Source: Narcine bancroftii (Eukaryota). From it: 64,000 nt of DNA. The stretch is from positions 108,190,001 through 108,254,000 of the forward strand of contig NC_091477.1 in assembly GCF_036971445.1 (NCBI RefSeq), in the 5' to 3' direction. Under the pieces are notes generated by a model, which made no database searches, had not been told where the DNA came from, and saw only the letters and a list, made by a program, of their open reading frames with translations. This document shows positions 7,443-38,619 of the stretch, piece by piece (position 1 is the first letter of the stretch; each line of letters starts with the position of its first letter). The position numbers and the translations under genes were made by a program.

Positions 7443-8638
7443 GTTCTTGAGTATTTAATCGTTTCTTTGTTACTCTTATTCTCTCTAAACCTTCCATTTC
7501 TCGAGAGTAAGGTTGCATCATTTAGTCAGATATTTTTTGGTTAGTTGACTGAATAAGGTTAGTATTGACTCAGCTTTTAAAAACAAATGATTGTTTTAAC
7601 ATGATCAGGCCCTGAAAGGTGGCAAGTAATTAGGCACAGCTATTAAAACCATAAATTATGGAAGAAATCATTTTTCTTTTGAAGGTGATCTGAAAGTGTT
7701 TGCAGTCTACTGCTTGCCCAATGTTAAACTGTTAGTCTTTTTTGATAATTATTATGCTTTGGGTTAATATAATCACCAAAACTCAGTAAATATAGGCATT
7801 GGGGAGGGAATTTACAAGGCTGTGAAGTGTTTTCTCACTAGGAAAGTTGCAAGTTTGCTTCTCAGCTCTCTTGTTCCTTAGTTTTAGTGTTGAGAGGATT
7901 GTGGGAACAATTGTGTAGCTGTTTTTAAAATAGCTTATTTAAAGAGCATCTTAACAAAAGATGAATTATTGATTAGTTATGCTTGAAGAGGTTCAGTGAA
8001 TTTCATTTTATTTATTCATGCTTTGTGTTCAAATCAGAAGCTTTGCAACAATGTAATCATTCAGTCAATTAAGTATAGACACTAAGACTTAATATTATTT
8101 GAAATCTATCAAGTTGTCAACTTTCATTGTAACTGTATTTAAGATAATACAGCTACCGATGAACATTTATTCAGGAAAGAGACAGAAGGGAAGGGAAGCA
8201 GAATTAATAACATGGCTGCACTCTTAAAGGTGCCCATGGTTCCTTGCTGCAGGATTCTATGACTAAACAACATAGAACAAGGAAAGATAATAGAAGCAAA
8301 ATTGTAAGATCAGATTTGGATTTCTCTGGATCCATTTGCACCACTGACAATTTCCAAACTCTTAAATCTTGAGTGGACTTTAGTGTTTCTATCATTTTAT
8401 AAGCACAGAGTTGTTGCAAAATATGGAGGGCAAACAATTCTACAAGGCCATCAGTAAGTTTTTATTAGGTTTGATTTCCACTTTACAATTTACTGAAGAA
8501 ACTATTCTTCCAAGACAGACTTCAGAGCCTATTTAAAATAAAATGTTCAAAGCTATAGTCAGTGATTGCTTCAAAATCAGACTTCTAGGAAGAGAATAGC
8601 TTTGCTATCTCAAAATGTACAGGGAAAGTCATTATAAA

Positions 8639-8737
8639 CTAGAATTTCTGCCTTGGTTCAGGAACTCTCTGCATCTGGGCCAGTTTTCCAAACCCACCTC
8701 TGCCCGCGTCATAATCTCTCCTGTATTCATCACGCAC
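8639..8737 (-). CDS. NCBP2: NCBP2 (CBP20) coding exon 4 (last)
   Basis: ctgttcag| acceptor; [32 protein letters not shown]. Confidence 0.95.
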
Positions 8738-9354
8738 CTGAACAGAAGCAAATAGAGAATACAGTGTATTAAGTGATAGTGGCATTAAAACAAAAGCAAG
8801 GAAGAATTGTTACATTTAGTGAACTTTTCACATGTCAAATCTTAAAAATTGCAAAGATGCTCTTGTCCTGACCTGAAATATGGACAGGGAATTTCCAGCT
8901 ACAGTTCCTGCCTTACCTGCCGAGTCCCTTCAGCCTTGTTCACTTGAGATTCTAGCATTAGCAGTTTTTAATCACTCCCAGGTCTTAAAACTACATTTGC
9001 CTGTTTCTTCCCACCAACCTTACTGTAGAAAATTAAAGATCAAAAACAAAATTGCTCAGCAGTCAGAGAACATGATACAAAACTGAAAACTACACTATCC
9101 ACCTTGTTTAAATATAACTTTGTCAATGAAAACTGGTGTAAAGGGAATAATTTTGATCAGGAATGAGGCAGCCTATTTATCACAAGATCCCAAGGGAATG
9201 ACATGTCTCCCTCTCCACATGTACTGCTTCAACGTTTTCAGCCCTCTTTGATTTCATGAATCTGCATTTTGTATAGTTTATAATACCAGTGTTTATAAAT
9301 TACAGTCATATCCTGGCAACAAAGGATGAACTTTAGTGCCCTACAATGACAATA

Positions 9355-10300
9355 AGTTTTTTTCCTGTGTTTTTATTTTCTTTAAAATATAACAAAAAAA
9401 CTTTTACACAAGTTATACTAATAACATAAATCAATTGTAAATTAACCTAGTTAGTACAACTTATTTTCTACATGAAAATTCTATATTACAATAATTAAAC
9501 AATTAAATCATAGCATGTCCAAAAATGATATTAAATACAAAAATTATACAAATACACATAAAATTTCTTTATATTTTCTACTTCTCTGATGTGATCATGT
9601 TCTGTGATTATGATCCATAGTTTAAACCCCCTTTACTTATTTGTCTTAAGAAAAAAAGTGTATCCCTACTAATCTACTCCCTCTCTCTAAACAAGGTTAT
9701 CTGTATCTATTTTATAAATATGAATTGAATAACGGCCCCCAGACACCAAACAGGGAATCCCTAGAGCATCCACACCACTTAAATCCTCAGTTTATGATAA
9801 TAATCCATGAATGAGCCCCACATCTTATGACATTAAAGATCAAAAGTCTGAATTTGATATCTAATTTTTTCCCCCAAATTTAAATAAGACATGATGTTAT
9901 GTAACCATTGAATGTGAACGTTCTACTTAATCAAAATTGCTCATCTAGCTATCAACGAAGCAAAAACTAGGAGAGAAACCAAATAAAACAATCAAAGGGC
10001 ATGGTTCTAATTTAGTCTTAAGAATCATTGATGAAGTTTGGAAATTATCTTTCCAAGTATGTTCTAAGTTTGGATATTCCTAAAACACATGAATCAATGA
10101 CGCTTCAAAAAAAAAAAAAATTATATATAAATACACTCATCACATAATAGATCCCTATCAGGATAAAAATGAGAATTTAACTTTACTTTCTGTGTACCAT
10201 CTTCAATTTCAACAATGTCGTGCACAAAATTTAGACTTGTATTCCAATCCCTCTATTTGAATGCTCTATTCCAACCACACTCCCAATCGTTCTTAATCCT
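9355..10300 (-). mobile_element. L1/Tx1-like 3' fragment in NCBP2 intron 3
   Basis: AT-rich degraded ORF2-like sequence ending in a poly(A)/AATAAA-type tail on the minus strand; family call by eye. Confidence 0.4.
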
Positions 10301-10426
10301 GGACTGTTTTTATTATTTTGCTGATAAACACCAAAATGCTCTTAACACAAGCTTGAAATTTTCATTTCATTATTAAAAAGAGGCTACAATTTCTCAGGAT
10401 CACATAATAAAAAACGAACCACATAC

Positions 10427-10565
10427 CTGACCACCGGATTTTCCTCGGCCAAACTGCCTACCTTCCTTGAAGCCAGTATCCCAATCTGTTCTAATAATGC
10501 GATCATCCAAACGCGTTCCATTAATAAATCTCATGCAGTGTTCAGCGTCTGCACGTGTGTCATAT
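10427..10565 (-). CDS. NCBP2: NCBP2 coding exon 3 (139 bp)
   Basis: (E)[46 protein letters not shown]|gtatgt; 5' boundary fixed by frame and by the conserved CFVEY motif. Confidence 0.93.
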
Positions 10566-10807
10566 CCAATTAAATTAGTTAAGGATATGTCACCATTCAA
10601 ACAAGAACTTGTCTTTAACAAGGGATACAGAAACAAGGCGAATTAGCGTTTCCTGATTTGCTATCATCTACTGAAGGACAGATAAAACTTGGTGCTAAAT
10701 GCCTTTTTCCCGTTTCAATACAAAACATGCTGATGTCAATCTTGTATTTTACATGGTGGTTTATTCAGGAAAGAAATAAAGACAGGAACTTCATAGTGAA
10801 AAGATAC
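10566..10807 (-). other. U12-type (minor spliceosome) intron, GT-GG, 242 bp
   Basis: Donor GTATCTTTT (U12 consensus RTATCCTTT); branch site TCCTTAAC at 10585-10578; no polypyrimidine tract or AG after it; the intron must end ...AATTGG to keep the frame. Confidence 0.88.
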
Positions 10808-10989
10808 TCCACAAAACAGAAGCCACACGACGTTTTCTTGATTTTATCCAGACCCATGATGATTCTTTTAACATCTCCACTTTTTGAAAAAAGTTCGTAG
10901 ATCTGTTCCTCAGTTGTGTAGAATGACATATTCCCAACATAGAGGGTACAGCTATGCCTCAACAGTTTGATCTGTTCATATTGGCTTCC
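10808..10989 (-). CDS. NCBP2: NCBP2 coding exon 2 (182 bp)
   Basis: ttttgaag| acceptor; [60 protein letters not shown](E), containing RRM RNP2 and RNP1. Confidence 0.95.
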
Positions 10990-12698
10990 CTTCAAAACAA
11001 ACAATACAATTTACATTTGGACACAGGAAACAAATATACATTCATAGATCTATGTCTAAAATAACAGTATCAGGAAAATAAATTCACAGTTTTGCTTCCC
11101 TTAAGATCAATAGTTTAAAACTAACTTCAGGTCAAACCCTTATGGCAAATCTCCCCTAATAAGTTGCCAAAAACTCATCACCTTTTAAGTGTCCCCATGA
11201 AATAAGGAAGAAGTCCTACCACTCACTTATAAATGGTTTCCTCAATCAGTTGTTCAGATTACACTGTCAAAAGTATTGAAATTTTCCTCCACTTTTTCCG
11301 CAGTTCCCAAATGAGTGGGCCAAAATGTAATTAATCGCCAACATTAACGTCAGGGACTGGAGCACATAATGCTCCAGGAAGTACAGCAATGTTGGGAGGC
11401 AAATCTTTTATCTGCCATTTTAAAATTAAATCCATCACAGATGAATGCACAAAATATAAGTGAGTAGATTCTGCAAAGTTCCAGGACAACTTGTGTACAA
11501 TAAACCTCAAATAGCAATGTGATAATGAGCAAATAAATCTTCAAGAAATAAGAGCAAAATTAGGCCTTCTGCCATTAAGATCATGATTGTCCAGGCCATG
11601 AACTCAACTCCACCTTTTTTCCCCCCCATAACCCTTCATTCCCCTACGATGCAAAAATCAGTCAAATAGATTTAATGACGCAACTCCTACTGCTTCCTAT
11701 TGGTAGAGAATTCTACAGATTTGCTACTTGAAAAAAATCTGTTCCATCCCAGATCTACTCCTTTGAATCTTGAGGTGATATCTCCTAGTTTAAATTTCAC
11801 CTACAAGTGAAAATTACATTATACAACATGTAGGCAGGAAGTTATTAAGATCTCCCACTTCTGAAATCTATTCTATTAATATTGGCCAGATCACAATACA
11901 ACAAAAAATATTATTCAAATATATGGGGCATTTTACATCTCTCAAATAGCAAATATGACTTAGTTCAACATTTCAACCAATGTAAGCCCCTCTAATTGTA
12001 CAGCATTCCTTCAATATTACACTGGTATGTCAACATGTATTCCTGTCCTCAAGTCTCCAGGACGGAATGAGCAATTTCTGACATAGAAATAATCACAGAA
12101 AAGTTTCAGATCATCAATGCACCATTTTGGCTAATTAAGTCTGTACCTGGTCTACGCAAGTTCAATGCAGGTAGACTCCATGTCCCTGGGAAGTGAGAAT
12201 GAACAAATAATTTTTGGGTGAAATAATTTTTGTTCAACCACGAGATATCCAAGTCACTGCCAAGCTCAGCGTTGATTATATACTCCTAATTGCTTTGAAT
12301 CTTGAGGAGAGGATGATCACATTTGTGGGGAATAAGTATTGAATTATCTGGGGTCGGAGACAACCACAAATCTTATAATAAACATTCAAGGCTCGCAGTA
12401 GGAATCCTCTGATCAGGTTCTAAGCAGTGTTATTTGCTCTCGGATTACTTGTTGAGTATGGTTGATCAGAATATGGCCCACCTGGTCCAATGTTTGCAAC
12501 TTGCCAGTCACCAGCAGATTGTTCAGGTGCCAGCCATTAGAAATTGGTAACTCACTCTTTAATTTTGTCTCCATCAGAAAATGGCCATTACTGTCAGAAA
12601 TCATTTGGCTCATTTATTTCTGTTATCGTCTGACCTGGTGGCAATGTCCCAATCTTGCTATGAAGGAAAAAAAAAATCTAATTGCCACTTTTAACCTT

Positions 12699-14290: not shown

Positions 14291-14703
14291 CAATCATCGC
14301 TCTAGCTCCATTTTCCTGCCTACTCCCCATAGTCCTCAACAACTTGACGGTGTTAAAACCCCAATTTATACTATGCAGCAATTTGATACCCTTGCCGGGA
14401 CGGCATCTGGTCACTCCCCTGACCTCCGTTCTGTTTCCCATACGGTTTTTAAAATGACCAACTTCCCGTTGAGATGCACCATTGGAGTCACAAAAAATGA
14501 AACTTTTTAAAAAATGTAACGTGCAGGGGTGTGAAAACGAGGCGAAAAAGGTCCGGAAATAACTTCCAGCTTGGCACCAAAAGCCCCAGGAACAGTGAAG
14601 GACTCGGCCACCAAAACTCTGAATTCCAAACGTTTTGTGACTTTTGGGAAAGAAGTTCATCATCACATCAAACTCAGCAGATCCTGCAGCATCCACAAGG
14701 GTT

Positions 14704-16227
14704 CTCTCCTCTCCCCTCCCCCCTCCCCTCCCCCCACCTCCCCTCCTCCCTCCGCCCCCTCCCCCCNNNNNNNNNNNNNNNNNNNNNNNNNNNNNNNNNN
14801 NNNNNNNNNNNNNNNNNNNNNNNNNNNNNNNNNNNNNNNNNNNNNNNNNNNNNNNNNNNNNNNNNNNNNNNNNNNNNNNNNNNNNNNNNNNNNNNNNNNN
14901 NNNNNNNNNNNNNNNNNNNNNNNNNNNNNNNNNNNNNNNNNNNNNNNNNNNNNNNNNNNNNNNNNNNNNNNNNNNNNNNNNNNNNNNNNNNNNNNNNNNN
15001 NNNNNNNNNNNNNNNNNNNNNNNNNNNNNNNNNNNNNNNNNNNNNNNNNNNNNNNNNNNNNNNNNNNNNNNNNNNNNNNNNNNNNNNNNNNNNNNNNNNN
15101 NNNNNNNNNNNNNNNNNNNNNNNNNNNNNNNNNNNNNNNNNNNNNNNNNNNNNNNNNNNNNNNNNNNNNNNNNNNNNNNNNNNNNNNNNNNNNNNNNNNN
15201 NNNNNNNTCCCCCTCTTCCTCTCCTCTCCCCCTCTTCCTCTCCTCTCCCCCTCTTCCTCTCCTCTCCCCCTCTTCCTCTCCTCTCCCCCTCTTCCTCTCC
15301 TCTCCCCCTCTTCCTCTCCTCTCCCCCTCTTCCTCTCCTCTCCCCCTCTTCCTCTCCTCTCCCCCTCTTCCTCTCCTCTCCCCCTCTTCCTCTCCTCTCC
15401 CCCTCTTCCTCTCCTCTCCCCCTCTTCCTCTCCTCTCCCCCTCTTCCTCTCCTCTCCCCCTCTTCCTCTCCTCTCCCCCTCTTCCTCTCCTCTCCCCCTC
15501 TTCCTCTCCTCTCCCCCTCTTCCTCTCCTCTCCCCCTCTTCCTCTCCTCTCCCCCTCTTCCTCTCCTCTCCCCCTCTTCCTCTCCTCTCCCCCTCTTCCT
15601 CTCCTCTCCCCCTCTTCCTCTCCTCTCCCCCTCTTCCTCTCCTCTCCCCCTCTTCCTCTCCTCTCCCCCTCTTCCTCTCCTCTCCCCCCTTCCTCTCCTC
15701 TCCCCCTCTTCCTCTCCTCTCCCCCTCTTCCTCTCCTCTCCCCCTCTTCCTCTCCTCTCCCCCTCTTCCTCTCCTCTCCCCCTCTTCCTCTCCTCTCCCC
15801 CTCTTCCTCTCCTCTCCCCCTCTTCCTCTCCTCTCCCCCTCTTCCTCTCCTCTCCCCCTCTTCCTCTCCTCTCCCCCTCTTCCTCTCCTCTCCCCCTCTT
15901 CCTCTCCTCTCCCCCTCTTCCTCTCCTCTCCCCCTCCCTCTCCTCTCCCCCTCCCTCTCCTCTCCCCCTCCCTCTCCTCTCCCCCTTCCTCTCCCCCTCC
16001 CTCTCCTCTCCCCCTCCCTCTCCTCTCCCCCTCCCTCTCCTCTCCCCCTCCCTCTCCTCACCCCCCTCCCTCTCCTCACCCCCCTCCCTCTCCTCACCCC
16101 CCTCCCTCTCCTCACCCCCCTCCCTCTCCTCACCCCCCTCCCTCTCCTCACCCCCCTCCCTCTCCTCACCCCCCTCCCTCTCCTCACCCCCCTTCCTCTC
16201 CTCACCCCCCTCCCTCTCCTCACCCCC
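14704..16227. repeat. polypyrimidine/polypurine minisatellite in NCBP2 intron 1, spanning an assembly gap
   Basis: 19-bp unit CCTCTTCCTCTCCTCTCCC grading into 18-bp units (CCCCTCCCTCTCCTCACC); 441 N at 14767-15207. Confidence 0.95.
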
Positions 16228-16362
16228 GACTTCTTATGGATGCTGCGTGACCTACTTAAACGTCTCCAGCACATCTTTGCCTCTCCAGACTTCCTTGGTG
16301 AACCGTTAACCCCATCCCGAACGCTTGGGAGGGGGTTTGGGGGAGCATCGCGGACTCTTTAC

Positions 16363-16431
16363 CCGAAAATGCTGGTCTCGGTAATCGCTCAGCTCCACGC
16401 GAGAATCGCTGTTGAGGGCGTTCAGCGACAT
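16363..16431 (-). CDS. NCBP2: NCBP2 coding exon 1
   Basis: ATG...MSLNALNSDSRVELSDYRDQHFR|gtaaag; joined CDS 69+182+139+99 = 489 nt = 162 aa plus stop. Confidence 0.93.
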
Positions 16432-18768: not shown

Positions 18769-19011
<243 letters not shown>

Positions 19012-23004: not shown

Positions 23005-24605
23005 TCAAGTTTTAGAATTCTTTCCTATTATCTGTACCTTGAAAATGTAAAGACTCAGCTGGCTCAGTATATCGTTGGAAAAAATTTTAGAAATATCAGG
23101 AGGGTCTTCCATAGACAAATGGGGGAAGAAGGAGGCATTAGATTTCCATTGAAAGTTACAATAATTAAAGGTATATTCTAGAGTACCTGGAGCAATGATG
23201 TAAATATATATTTGGTTATTCTCAAAAGAAGAAAAGTTCCCAAAAAATCTATTCACTGTGCTGTTGAGCACAGAAACATCAGACCCTCCTAGATCAATGA
23301 TTCTGATTGATTCTTGGTCTGTTTTGACATTCAGGAGATGTCTAGGAGGCATATAAGTGTGATAAAATATCAAAATGTATTCCTCTTGGTCAATTACAGA
23401 ATCTTTTAAATGGAGAGCTTTTTCTAAATAGGAAATACAAGGAATCAAGCCACCCTGGTGTAGACAGCCAAAAAATACTGAACATAAAATGTTAAAGAGA
23501 ACAATTACAGTTTTCCACCTCAATGTCTTATGTTTTAAAATATAATGAAGAACAACTGGTACAATAAGTGGACTAAGAAATCGTCCTTCCTGATGACAAA
23601 ATAAAGAAAGAACAATCATAGGAACAAAATAAACCAAAATTAAATATTCAGTCATTGCCAATCTCTGTTCACATTGCTGTCCTTTTGGAACGTGACTTTC
23701 CCCACTGCGCACAAGTTTGCTAATTAGGATTTGGATACCAGATGCACAGGCTGACAAATGAAGAGTACCAAACAGTACAAGACCATTCACAGTCAGATGT
23801 GTAAACCAGGGATGTCTCCCATGTGAAGAAAGATTTTCCCAATCCAAGTTGTACACAATGAAATTGAGAGGAGTTACCGCTACATGTTGTCGTAGATTAG
23901 CAATGTGTTTATGTACAGCATTTTCAGTGTTCAAAAAGCAGTGAATTTCAGAAATCATTACACCAAAATATAATGTATCTATCATAATGAAAGTAAAAGT
24001 GGTTACAATTACAGAGGAAAAAATGCCAAACATATTGGACAAAATCGTTCTAAAACTGAACTGAAATGTGCCTTTCTGATCATGAGAAAGCCAGAGGAAC
24101 ACTGGCACTAAAGCATAAACTAGGAACGTGGGCCTATTAAAAATACCCGAGGCCAAAAGAATCCCAACCAGATAAACATTCTTCTTTCTGTTCTTTTCCC
24201 CAACATCGGATGTCACGTTTGTTTGCTTTGTGTCGACAGCCACTAATAACAGCAGCAATGAGAAAAGACCTGCTTCTATAGAATTTGAAAATGTTCTGGT
24301 GTGAAAAACCAACATCACATGTGACACACTCAACAGTGTTAAAGCATTCCATGGGTCTGCATCCCAGAGACAGGCTATACTGTATACTGTGTAGTCTAAT
24401 ATAAAAGACAGGCATGTCAGATAAAATCTGGGTAAAACCAACAAAGTATAACTGTTTACAATGTTGTCAAATAGGCCACAGTTTTCCAAATTTTTAAGTA
24501 CTGTGAATGAAAATCCTGTTGTGGCTAATGGGAAAAAAACTGATCTGCTAGGATAACACGTATTGAATTCCCAGGGGTGGACGGTTTTCAACTTGAAAAT
24601 GTCAC
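23005..24605 (-). CDS. PIGZ: PIGZ paralogue A, large last coding exon (GPI mannosyltransferase 4)
   Basis: tttgtag| phase-1 acceptor; open frame with WEF..YPSRS, TRTFSNSIE, FNRPTF, HGRHPWFTH, HQEGRF, HQGG and HTYMPP motifs (GT22 SMP3/PIGZ); multiple hydrophobic segments. Confidence 0.92.
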
Positions 24606-25879
24606 CTACAAAGAAAGGATAAGGAGCTTGATAGAAACATAAATTACTTTATATAATCTACTTAATTCTTTAAAAAATGCTGTATATATTTGTTTTAGCT
24701 TGTTAATGTGAACCATAAACTGAAAACCGAAACAAGCAAATAGTGAAATTATGAGATACTGCCTCAATGGAAATACTGAAATTAAACCTCCTATTTCTCC
24801 TTTTCTGAACACAAAAATCGAGAGGGCTGAGATATTGATAATATTATTTAAGGTACATCAAGATTTAAAAGTAATGTATTTGGAGAACTAATTAAACAGC
24901 TGAATTATGAAACCTAAATAATAATCTTAAATATGGGCATATATAAACACCTAGAAAGATTTAGGTATGGAGGGATCTGGATGTCCAAGTACATGATTTA
25001 AAAAAGTGATTAGCAAGTCATTAGGAAAGTTAAAAGAATGTAATTGTTTAATGTTAGGTGAACTGAATAAAAGAAGCAGAGAAGTTCAGAGTCTCAAAAA
25101 AAAAGGGTCCTGACATGAAACTTTAACTGTACATCTCTCACTACGAATAAACAAGGAAGTGCTGGAAGAACTCTATGGGTCAGACAGCATCCATGGGTAG
25201 AAATGGTCAATGTTTCAGGTGGGGACTCTTTATTGAGACTAAAGATTTAAAAGGGTGAATATAAAGGAGGAAAGAAGCTGATAGAGGGACCTGGAGGTGA
25301 TAGGATATTGGATGGGTGGAGGGACACAACACTGGGAAGGGGGGGCCGGGGGGAGGGAGAAAAGTTACAAAGTGCAGGAATGGGTAAGTACATGGAATGC
25401 AGTCTAACCTGCTGCATTCCTCCAGCAGCTCATTCTTTGCTCAAAATCCCAGCACCTGCTGTCATTGTATGGGTGTCTATCTCGGTCTCTCTTTATATAC
25501 ATATACACACAGCCTGCTGAGTCCCCTAGTTTCTCATTCCACTTGCAGGGAAGTTGTTATCTATATGGGTCACATCTAGAGCATGTTTACAGTGATGGTC
25601 TTGTTTAAAAACATCAAAATAGTGGGAGGAGTTCAGAGAAGGTAAACCAGATTGACATCTGGAAAGAGTTGATTGTCTTATAAGGAAAGGTTTGGCTTGA
25701 ATTTGAGCTGTTTGAGTTCAGAAGACTAAAGGGTAAGTTAACTGAATCATTCAAGATCTTGATTGTTGATGGGGTGGATGTAGGGAGGATATTTTCTCTT
25801 GTGTGAAAATTGAGAATTTAGAACTAGGGTTATATTTAAAAACAAAGGGCTGCCAAGAGATTTACAACAGATGTAATGA

Positions 25880-35084: not shown

Positions 35085-36715
35085 CTAGGTTTCAGAGTTC
35101 CTTGACTCTATATGCACCTCATAAATGTAAAGACTCAGTTGGTTCAATCCATTCTTCACAAGAGAAGGAATGTGAGGAGGATCTTCCATAGTTAAATGAG
35201 GAAAGAACTTCTTCAGAGTTTTCCATTGGAATCCACAGCTATCAATATCATTTTGAACAGTACCTGGAGCAATGATATAGATATTCATTTCCTGATTCTT
35301 CACCGTGTGTTTGGAATAACTATTGGCAAGTAATTCTTGCACTGTGCTGTTGAGCACATGCACATCAGACCCACCCAGGTCAATGATTCTGATGAATTCT
35401 TGGTTTGATTTAACATTCAAAAGATACCTAGGAGGCATGTAGGTATGGTAAAATACCAAATTATACTCGTACTGCTTAACCATTTGATTCTTTGAATGAA
35501 GAATTTTTTCAAGGTAGGACAGAGAAGGAATTAGACCACCTTGGTGCAACCAACCAAAAAGCAAGGATCCCAAGATATTAAACAAGACTATAATAACCTT
35601 CCATCGGAACAGTTTATATTTTGGAGCACTGAGAATTACAAGTGGCACAATGAGTGGACTAATATATCTTGGTTCCTGGTGTTTAAACAATGATAGAACA
35701 AAGATTGGAATTAAATAAACAAGGAACAAGTACATATCAAAGTGGGAAGTGGAAGAAAGTGGTGCTGACAATTTCTTTTCTGAACGTTTTTTTGTAGAAT
35801 TACAAGAGGTAGCTTTGCAGGCAAAGTTACTGACCATTATTTTGGTACCAGCTACAAGAGCAGAGAAATGAAGGCTACCAAACAACAGGAAACTATTCAG
35901 TGTCAAATGTGTAAACCAAGGATGGCTACCATGTGCAACAAGGCTTTTTTGATCCAAGTTGTACAAAATAAGATTAACAGGGGTTAAAACTAAATGTTGG
36001 CTTATGTTAACAATATGTTGATACACAGTAATTTCATTGTTCAAAAGCCAGTCCCTTTTGGACAATAATGAACCAAAATACAGTGCATCTGTCACAATGA
36101 AAAGAAAACTAGTTGTAATCACAGAAATCAAAATGCTAATGCAGTTTGTTATGATCAGTTTTAAACTGAATTGAAAAGTGCCTTTTTGATCACAAGAAAG
36201 CCACAGGAACATTGGCACTAAAGAATAACTGATGAATGTGGGACGATTGAAAACTCCTGAAGCCAAAATAATCCCAATAAGATATTTACTGTTCCATCTG
36301 CCCTTTTTTCCAGTATCTGCACCCACATTTGCTTGCTTTGTGTCCATACCTACCAACAGCAGTAGCAATGCAAACAGAACTGCTTCTATACTGTTTGAAA
36401 ATGTTCTTGTATAAAAAACCAACATGACATGTGACCCACTTAGCAGTGTTAAAGCATTCCATGGATCTGCATTCCACAGACCGGCTAAATGGTATACGGA
36501 GTAGTCCAATATAAAGGACAGACATGTCAGGTAGAATCTAGGGAAAACCAACAAAGTGTAACTGTTTATGATGTTGCCAAAAAGCTCAGAATTGTTTAAG
36601 GCTTTCAAGACTGTAAATGAAAAACCTGCTGTGACCAATGGGAAAAGGACTGATCTGCTGGGGTAACTGGTATTGAATTCCCAAGTACGGAATGTTTTGA
36701 GGTTTAAAATATCAC
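35085..36715 (-). CDS. PIGZ: PIGZ paralogue B, large last coding exon
   Basis: tttgcag| phase-1 acceptor; same motifs as copy A (TRTFSNSIE, FNRPTF, HQEPRY, HQGG, HTYMPP, FFPHLTMED); no stops. Confidence 0.92.
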
Positions 36716-38619
36716 CTGCAAAGAAAACAAAGAAACATTGGAATAAGAACATTTTAATAGTTATATATACATCCCAAACAAAATGTCATCAGAAAACATT
36801 ACCTCCTTACCTTGACTTTAACAAAATTCTCCTACAATTTTTGATCTCCTCTGGCTTATTGTGAAACTATATCTGCTCTATTGATAAAAGTGGCTCCATG
36901 AAACAAAAGATTTCCTTTTCCTTTTGCTTAGTGTTAAATAGAGGTTTGTCATTTAACTGATCATTCGTCTCTCAGATCTTGAATCCAAGCAGCATGCAAT
37001 GCAATTTGTTACTAAATTCCTATGGTTATTTAATCTCGAGTGTTTTTCTCTCGCTGCTCTCCATAACTAGTCTCTGTCTTGAATCCTCATTGCAATGGAG
37101 ATTGAGATGAATGAGTCCATCTCCTGCTTGAAATTCTGCTTCTCCAGAACTTCAAAACTAGGGAAGTTCTTTCATTCTTCAATTTCTCCTACATCCTCTT
37201 GTTTTAAAATAAATACTTGGCATTGCCTAATTCTGATTTATCTTCTTAGCTTTGCTATTCTTTTTGATTGTGGCTTCACTGAGGCCTCATCCTAGCAAAA
37301 TAAAGAAAAAAAATCATAATGCATCTTTTTTATGGGCATAATGAGATGAAAGCAGAAAAGGATTTCCGTGAAAAAAATGCAAGGTTCACTGGATCTCATT
37401 TACAAATACCACAGTACTTTTTCATGTCCCTTCACCTCTCCAAGAAGTCAAAACGGAGTTGGAAAAGATGACCACAAAATGCCAGCAGAGGAAAAAGAAT
37501 GGAATTAAATACACAAATGTTGAAAATGCTCAGCAGGTCAGGCCATGCCATATCTGTGGGAAGAAAAGATTTAACATTTCTGGTTGAAGACCCGTTATCA
37601 GTCTTGAAAAGACCAAGAAAGCTGTTGGGGAGAGGAGGATGGGTGAGGAGGACATGCCTGATAGGGTGACAATGGGGACAAGATACTCTTTCAAAGAGTG
37701 AATAGGAGCAGTAGGAGTGCAAGAATATGGACAAAAGAGGGGGCAGCCATAGACTAATAGATCAGTGTGTAGGCCTACTTCTCATGTGTATAGGAGTGGT
37801 AGTATCTGGAGGCCTGATAAGAATGTGGAGAGAATTTTTAAAAAAATAAGTGTAATTGGTCACCACAGATGCCTTGAGCCAAAGGTGCCATTTTGGAGCT
37901 GCATCTCTCTGACTGTACAAAGCTTTAACTTGGTTTCTCTTTCCACAAATGCAGCCTGACCTCCTGGGTATTTCTAGCATTTTCTGTTTATATTTGTTTC
38001 CAGCATCTTTTTTTTTTCCTAAGAAAGGAAACATTGCTTTTGTTTGTTTTGTGAAAGGCTTGAGAAAGGAGAAAATCTTAACTAAAAAATCAAATACAAT
38101 TTGAATATTTTCATGTTCTCAGCTCCCAGAAAAAAATGTAAGTAACTCCCTGCATGGAAAACTCACTTTGCATGGAGTCAACAACTTGCATTCATTCATA
38201 CTACACTGTATTTAATGTGGTATAATACCATGTCAATATTCTAACTTGAGAGTAACTGGAATAATGATGAGCTTTGTGGGCATCTCCGGTTGCATCATCA
38301 TTTATACAACTTCTATACAGCACAAATGATTTGTTTCTTGAGCAAGTGCACGCCTCCAATTTAAGAGACTCATTGCTTCCAGGCATGTGGAAAAGAACAC
38401 ATATTAAAGCTCCCTGCAAAATATTCCTTCATTAAATCAAGTACTGCTACCATTATTAGATCAGAAATGCTTTTCGGTTTTTCATTTATTTGCTGTCCCT
38501 CAGTGGCATCATCTAAATTATATTGTCCAGTTCCAATGTACACTCAGCCCTACCTTGTCATTCTCAGGCTTGTCATATTACTTATGGTAGCAGCCAATCT
38601 GGGATAAAGCGATGTCTCC

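What the first reader, a model, noticed from the sequence alone, without database searches (positions are those of the whole stretch)
10566..10807. NCBP2 minor-spliceosome intron with non-canonical GT...GG termini
Seen: exon 2 ends GTG GA|GTATCTTTT, and a perfect TCCTTAAC branch site sits 13 nt before ...AATTGG|A TAT GAC. There is no AG between branch site and exon, and a nearby AT end would give GAA TGA (stop). Given the U12 donor, only a GG acceptor restores the invariant CFVEY of RNP1. Known: U12 introns choose the 3' end mainly by distance from the branch point and tolerate unusual dinucleotides, and CBP20 genes are known to carry a U12 intron. Inference: a +6 C>T donor plus a GG acceptor could make this intron rate-limiting for a cap-binding subunit that itself serves splicing and snRNA export. 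Retention would stop translation ~13 codons into the intron, and automated annotation probably mis-models this gene.
Basis: partly seen in the sequence, partly recalled or inferred. Interest (0 to 1): 0.7.

Follow-up and report, generated by a model that had tools for sequence, protein, structure and literature searches.

The report
GG-ending minor intron in ray NCBP2
In a ray's gene for the small cap-binding protein, one minor-spliceosome-type intron ends in GG instead of AG, yet assembled transcripts show it cut out exactly there, so it is a new example of a known rare intron type, likely tolerated rather than regulatory, and the public protein model gets one residue wrong at this junction.

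Summary
NCBP2 intron 2 (minus strand, 10807 to 10566, 242 nt) starts GTATCTTTT, has TCCTTAAC with the branch A 13 nt from the end, and ends in GG. Contigs of 4 of 4 likely-RNA runs (one study) join 10808 to 10565 with no ambiguity and no other joint; 3 of 4 hold an unspliced contig that reads GG. The human intron is GT-AG with +6 C, as are 2 of 2 readable distant orthologs, so GG is likely derived. The regulatory reading is not supported: unspliced contigs are roughly 0-3% of the signal against 1.5-2% for the next, ordinary intron (rough), and +6 T is a known human variant. GT-GG minor introns are in print (5 human, 3 mouse), and this scan met two on other DNA. The public protein reads H86 where RNA gives D86, reproduced only by sliding the intron 5 nt. 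Verdict: real, RNA-backed, new member of a known kind.

The parts
16363..16431 (-). NCBP2 exon 1, coding part (ATG at 16431)
   Evidence: loose end of RNA contigs behind 10990 maps to 16364; translation matches P0021
10808..10989 (-). exon 2 (182 nt), ends inside the Glu codon of CFVE (phase 2)
10566..10807 (-). intron 2, 242 nt, U12-type signals, GT...GG ends
   Evidence: joint 10565-10808 in 4 of 4 likely-RNA runs
10799..10807 (-). U12-type donor GTATCTTTT (+6 T; human and mouse have +6 C)
   Evidence: predicted pairing with this genome's U11 and U6atac through a G-U wobble
10578..10585 (-). U12-type branch site TCCTTAAC; branch A predicted at 10579 (or 10580)
   Evidence: predicted duplex with this genome's U12, one A bulged; no lariat data
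10566..10567 (-). GG acceptor, context TTGG|AT
   Evidence: window sequence; 0 differences in contigs 10536-10837 of X5, X6, X7
10427..10565 (-). exon 3 (139 nt), starts A TAT GAC, giving Y85 D86
   Evidence: RNA contigs 10425-10565 with 0 other letters
10765..10767 (-). in-frame TGA reached if the intron is retained (97-aa product)
10549..10550 (-). first AG after the branch site, 17 nt into exon 3; same offset as the acceptor of the human U2 twintron intron
   Evidence: no joint to it listed in 4 runs
10948..10949 (-). GT (GTACCC) 142 nt upstream of the U12 donor, same offset as the donor of the human U2 twintron intron
   Evidence: use not seen
8639..8737 (-). exon 4, coding part with stop; intron 3 (8738-10426) is an ordinary GT-AG intron used as the internal control

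Best explanation
NCBP2 intron 2 of this ray is spliced at GT...GG, likely by the minor (U12) spliceosome, and the GG is likely a tolerated lineage-specific A-to-G change at -2 of an ancestral AG rather than a control switch. Shown: the sequence, the exact junction in assembled transcripts, GT-AG in human and two distant orthologs, and standard U11, U12 and U6atac boxes in the genome. Inferred: U11/U12 bind the donor and branch site; the 3' end is chosen by distance (GG at 13 nt, inside the published 11-13 nt optimum; nearest AG at 30 nt), helped by the kept T at -3 and AT at the exon start. A full-consensus branch site (TCCTTAAC at 13 nt; human TCCTTAAT at 8 nt) likely made the AG dispensable. 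The public model misses the junction by 5 nt, likely because protein-guided alignment without a canonical end preferred His over Asp opposite the homologs' Tyr.
For:: one joint across intron 2 in 4 of 4 runs, depth 497, 767, 665, 355, 'both' = 0; X8 record 30 bridges it with 141 and 79 letters and 0 differences; no other joint in 10427-10990; unspliced share 3.0, 2.3, 2.4, 0% against 1.5, 2.0, 1.9, 1.5% for intron 3; joint depth ratio intron 2/intron 3 0.82-1.00; one genomic match only, so no retrocopy explains the joint and this gene must supply the protein; human/mouse ortholog is a catalogued U12 intron, GT-AG in human; 10 of 10 distant NCBP2 loci have GTATCCTTT; 2 of 2 with exon 3 end in AG. 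U6atac, U11, U12 found over the Rfam cut-off with unchanged pairing boxes; +6 T costs 2.7 kcal/mol per duplex but keeps every pair; review gives 11-13 nt optimum and says non-canonical ends support splicing; over half of non-canonical U12 ends differ between human and mouse (14 of 24); this protein differs from 9 other shark and ray proteins at 11-13 sites while those differ from each other at 0-7, in line with faster drift of the gene.
Against: The four runs are contigs, not reads, are only guessed to be RNA, come from one study and may be the assembled animal; in 3 of 4 runs the joint has only 30 letters on its shorter side. The tool warns that contig depth cannot rank parts of a gene, so the retention figures are rough. 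In 3 of 4 runs the unspliced share is a little higher than for intron 3 (1.2- to 2-fold) and the intron 2 joint a little lower. Steady-state RNA hides retained transcripts that are degraded. The review says non-canonical ends often splice less efficiently, and 2 of 3 human GT-GG rows show about 30% retention, on low counts. No shark or ray intron sequence could be read, so the age of GG is unknown. U12 dependence was not tested.
Confidence: 0.82

Rival explanations
1. The weakened donor and GG acceptor are a selected brake: the intron is slow, retained copies are destroyed, and CBP20 output, or the balance with the short U2-spliced isoform, follows minor-spliceosome activity.
For: +6 T weakens both predicted duplexes by 2.7 kcal/mol; unspliced share slightly above intron 3 in 3 of 4 runs; human NCBP2 intron responds to CENATAC and ZRSR2 loss; the twintron GT and AG positions are kept in frame, 109 aa; NCBP2 is described as a U12/U2 switch in human.
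Against: Spliced form dominates; no twintron or other joint listed; human GT-AG intron is retained 6-10%, no less than here; GTATCTTT occurs 24 times against 361 GTATCCTT in the human table, with shown examples at 4-16% retention apart from one low-count row; no conservation shown; the AG and GT of the twintron lie in coding sequence and may be kept for the protein.
Confidence: 0.1
2. GG is a private or low-frequency allele of one animal or population, not a species trait.
Against: No other letter at 10566-10567 in any contig, so the sampled animal(s) look homozygous, which is unlikely for a rare allele.
Confidence: 0.05
3. The intron is removed by the major (U2) spliceosome using an unusual GG end, as for some U2 GT-GG sites.
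For: GT-GG sites such as BANP are reported in human among U2/U12-like non-canonical sites; GT donor present.
Against: Donor and branch site are U12 consensus; ortholog catalogued as U12; 13 of the last 20 nt are pyrimidines, mostly the branch motif, against 17 of 20 for intron 3.
Confidence: 0.02
4. GG is an assembly error and the true end is AG, or the true junction is the slid one of the public model.
For: Public protein P0021 implies a different junction; no DNA run could be laid over the site.
Against: Three short-read contigs span the site with 0 differences, and the joint is at 10565-10808, not 5 nt off; the slid intron would be TT...TG with no splice signal.
Confidence: 0.01

Closest known systems
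GT-GG U12-type introns: human/mouse ARAF, human SLC12A7 (Sheth et al. 2006, PMC1557818, passages and Tables 2-3); TCTN3, SLC12A7, ZDHHC1 rows in de Wolf et al. 2021 (PMC8280824, supplement file 1 rows)
   Same: U12 donor and branch site with GG end; one-base change from GT-AG; SLC12A7 is GG in human and AG in mouse, the same kind of lineage switch; TCTN3 and SLC12A7 share the TGG|AT context seen here.
   Different: Different gene and lineage; here paired with a +6 T donor, which the three human GT-GG rows lack.
Human/mouse NCBP2 U12 intron 2 (Olthof et al. 2019, PMC6717393, supplement rows; de Wolf 2021 supplement rows)
   Same: Same position and phase (GTG GA|GT ... |ATAT), GT donor, U12 branch site.
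   Different: Human ends in AG, 8 nt after the branch A, with +6 C and TCCTTAAT, 1602 nt long; the ray ends in GG at 13 nt, with +6 T and TCCTTAAC, 242 nt long.
NCBP2 twintron giving the short CBP20 isoform (Janice et al. 2013, PMC3564746, first third of text plus passages; review PMC8329584, one passage)
   Same: GT at -142 and AG at +17 are present and in frame (109 aa).
   Different: Donor reads GTACCC; no such joint listed in 4 runs, so the twintron is not shown here.
Plant CBP20 U12 intron (Pieczynski et al. 2018, PMC5932401, passages)
   Same: A U12 intron in a CBP20 gene.
   Different: AT-AC ends and another position; not the ortholog of this intron.

Membership tests
U12-type (minor) intron | 5' splice site RTATCCTTT-like, able to pair with U11 and U6atac | tested here: met
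   GTATCTTTT; all pairs kept with one G-U; same variant in human U12 introns such as VPS35 and ZPR1
U12-type (minor) intron | branch site TCCTTRAC pairing with U12 | tested here: met
   10585-10578; predicted duplex with the genome's U12
U12-type (minor) intron | short branch-to-3' end distance (optimum 11-13 nt), no separate pyrimidine tract | tested here: met
   13 nt
U12-type (minor) intron | minor snRNA genes in the genome | tested here: met
   U6atac, U11, U12 over cut-off; U4atac not searched
U12-type (minor) intron | orthologous position to a catalogued U12 intron | tested here: met
   human/mouse NCBP2 rows; 10 distant loci
U12-type (minor) intron | removal depends on the minor spliceosome | not testable with these tools
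   needs knockdown or snRNA block
GT-GG non-canonical subtype | transcripts joined at GT...GG with genomic GG | tested here: met
   (contigs of 4 likely-RNA runs, one study)
Rate-limiting or detained minor intron | retention well above neighbouring introns | tested here: inconclusive
   0-3% against 1.5-2% from contig depths; rough, steady state only; no support found
NCBP2 U12/U2 twintron | outer U2 intron spliced to give the short isoform | tested here: inconclusive
   sites present, joint not listed; contigs drop rare forms
NCBP2/CBP20 gene | protein matches CBP20 over its length; RRM | tested here: met
   E 3.4e-84 to the 20 kDa cap-binding protein chain 1h2t_Z, residues 3-153; RRM_1

The most novel reading that the evidence does not exclude
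Electric rays rebuilt the NCBP2 twintron: losing the U12 AG leaves the +17 AG as the only acceptor open to the major spliceosome, and the weakened U12 ends make full-length CBP20 a sensitive gauge of minor-spliceosome activity, so that stress shifts output to the short isoform or to decay, a feedback on snRNA export that steady-state RNA hides.
Probability: 0.07. Interest if true: 0.55.

Novelty: new member of a known kind. Interest (0 to 1): 0.27.

Why it matters
It is a natural, transcript-backed case in which a single-copy housekeeping gene carries a minor intron with two departures from consensus and is still spliced precisely, which supports the view that branch-site distance, not AG, fixes the U12 3' end. 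It offers a ready minigene pair (human AG at 8 nt, ray GG at 13 nt). Practically it shows a quiet annotation error: a 5-nt intron slide hides a Tyr-to-Asp change (human Y89 position) behind a His. It does not open a new mechanism.

Tried and rejected
No RNA holder on record was listed by the run search; four runs are RNA by guess only. Laying DNA runs X1 and X3 at 80% likeness gave no cover over the gene, and X9 (organism B, share 0.05) gave no ortholog intron, so one search added neither a raw DNA check nor a relative; these holes prove nothing. Other acceptors (AT at +2 or -3, AC at +7 or +9, AG at +17) were rejected: frameshift, stop or altered RNP1, and no joint listed. A retrocopy as source of the joint was rejected (these score best candidates only). 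Compensating changes in U11, U12 or U6atac were looked for and not found. Protein models of other sharks and rays (15 of 25 cluster members listed, 14 others aligned) show no junction shift but say nothing on intron ends. The primary mutational papers (Dietrich 2001, 2005; Levine and Durbin 2001) were not held, so the 11-13 nt optimum rests on a review passage. The twintron paper's supplement on vertebrate conservation could not be read, nor Table 3 (an image) of the pan-eukaryote survey; both may bear on how often GT-GG arises. No paper on this case was found in searches (open-access library only).

Full report
Setting. The finding lies on the minus strand in a four-exon gene whose 162-aa product matches CBP20/NCBP2 (E 3.4e-84 to chain 1h2t_Z, run with the public protein P0021, which differs by one residue). 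The window is G000:C21:108190001-108254000. DNA and protein searches of G000 each gave one match, so the gene looks single-copy.

Observation. Intron 2 runs 10807 to 10566 (242 nt). It begins GTATCTTTT, holds TCCTTAAC at 10585-10578 and ends TTGG before A TAT GAC. The second branch A is 13 nt from the end; the first AG is 30 nt away, 17 nt into exon 3 and out of frame with this donor. Of 35 acceptor positions tried with the donor fixed, only GG gave the full protein with CFVEY; retention gives 97 aa. The motif pair is far beyond chance (about 5e-8 from window counts).

Transcript evidence. The run search listed 9 runs, none on record as RNA, four guessed to be RNA (X5-X8; four samples, one study). 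Laid on 8400-11300, all four show the joint 10565-10808, 242 skipped, no ambiguity, at depths 497, 767, 665 and 355, and also the ordinary intron 3 joint, as spliced RNA should. Three joints have 30 letters on the short side; X8 record 30 bridges with 141 and 79 letters and no difference. No other joint is listed within exons 2-3. X5, X6 and X7 hold a contig over 10536-10837 with 0 differences, so GG is not an assembly error, though the samples may be the assembled animal. The DNA runs gave no cover over the gene.

Efficiency. From contig depths the unspliced share is 3.0, 2.3, 2.4 and 0% for intron 2 and 1.5, 2.0, 1.9 and 1.5% for intron 3; the intron 2 joint is 0.82-1.00 of the intron 3 joint. 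The tool warns that such depths cannot rank parts of a gene, so I take only that the spliced form dominates. The human GT-AG ortholog shows retention of 0.098 in healthy samples and 0.062 in control cells (supplement rows; a different measure). Against my reading: intron 2 is slightly more unspliced than intron 3 in 3 of 4 runs, decay could hide retained RNA, and human SLC12A7 and ZDHHC1 GT-GG rows show 0.28 and 0.32 on low counts, TCTN3 0.075.

Ancestry. Human and mouse donors read GTATCCTTC; the human intron is GT-AG with TTCCTTAAT and 8 nt from the second A to the end. So GG and +6 T are likely derived. No shark or ray intron could be read, so their age is open. The protein differs at 11-13 sites from 9 other shark and ray proteins that differ at 0-7 among themselves, a hint of faster change in this lineage; whether that is gene-specific was not tested.

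Mechanism. U6atac, U11 and U12 genes are present with ordinary pairing boxes. The +6 T turns a G-C pair into G-U in both donor duplexes, costing 2.7 kcal/mol each, and the branch site pairs fully with U12 with one A bulged (predictions). GTATCTTT occurs 24 times against 361 GTATCCTT in the human table (string counts over the whole file, some in acceptor columns or repeated rows). A review gives 11-13 nt as the optimal branch-to-end distance and says non-canonical ends splice, often less efficiently (PMC3584512, passages). I infer that a full-consensus branch site at optimal distance, with T at -3 and AT after the end, lets the minor spliceosome use GG. U12 dependence itself is untested.

Annotation. 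P0021 equals the RNA-supported translation except H86 for D86. Among all donor and acceptor shifts of -30 to +30, only sliding both ends by 5 nt (intron TT...TG) reproduces it, and that slide has the best BLOSUM62 score against the stingray homolog among 19 slides (62 against 57). That homology-guided alignment caused it is inference. RNA contigs read the Asp codon with no difference; the position is Tyr in all 16 other aligned proteins and Y89 in human.

Known context. GT-GG U12 introns are in print: 5 human, 3 mouse, including ARAF and SLC12A7, and 14 of 24 non-canonical U12 introns switch ends between human and mouse (PMC1557818, passages and tables). A pan-eukaryote survey lists GT-GG as a subtype (bioRxiv 2022.09.24.509304, passages). 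Missed U12 ends in annotation are a known problem (PMC1635337, TOGA2 preprint; passages). Human NCBP2 is a U12/U2 twintron; its outer GT and AG positions are kept here in frame but no such joint was listed. PMC2831892 and PMC4176328 were seen as passages. This scan noted GT-GG introns in gecko SFI1 and camelid VPS16, by their summaries without RNA proof. No paper on this case turned up in searches.

Verdict. Real and transcript-backed; a new member of a known rare class; most likely tolerated (0.82), possibly regulatory (0.10). Interest 0.27.

Noticed in passing
window 10559-10561 (-), codon 86: RNA-supported Asp where all 16 other aligned CBP20 proteins have Tyr (human Y89), right after RNP1; hidden as His in the public model. 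Ten further residues are private to this species among 11 cartilaginous-fish proteins, including L44M in the LYVGNL motif.
   Followed up: partly
window 23008-24648 (-) and 35088-36785 (-): Two long open exons of the Alg9-like mannosyltransferase family (PF03901), 60% identical to each other: likely a tandem PIGZ duplication (PIGZ name recalled from human synteny).
   Followed up: partly
window 18784-19011 (+): 75-aa ORF head to head with NCBP2 that resembles NCBP2AS2 (name recalled, not searched).
   Followed up: no
window 10808-10903, run X9: A low-depth contig (2.9) in a run of organism B matches 96 nt of exon 2 with no difference, ends at the exon end and runs on in unrelated sequence; may be contamination or a chimera.
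   Followed up: no
window 14640-16250: Intron 1 holds a long purine-rich tandem repeat (minus strand) with a 441-base N stretch at 14767-15207.
   Followed up: no
window 9480-10050: Intron 3 holds a repeat element that draws many unrelated contigs and false joints.
   Followed up: no
L122-L125 (G000 C27, C22, C17 and others): 14 U6atac-like matches over the cut-off, most shorter or diverged, likely pseudogenes, against 1 U11 and 3 U12 matches.
   Followed up: no
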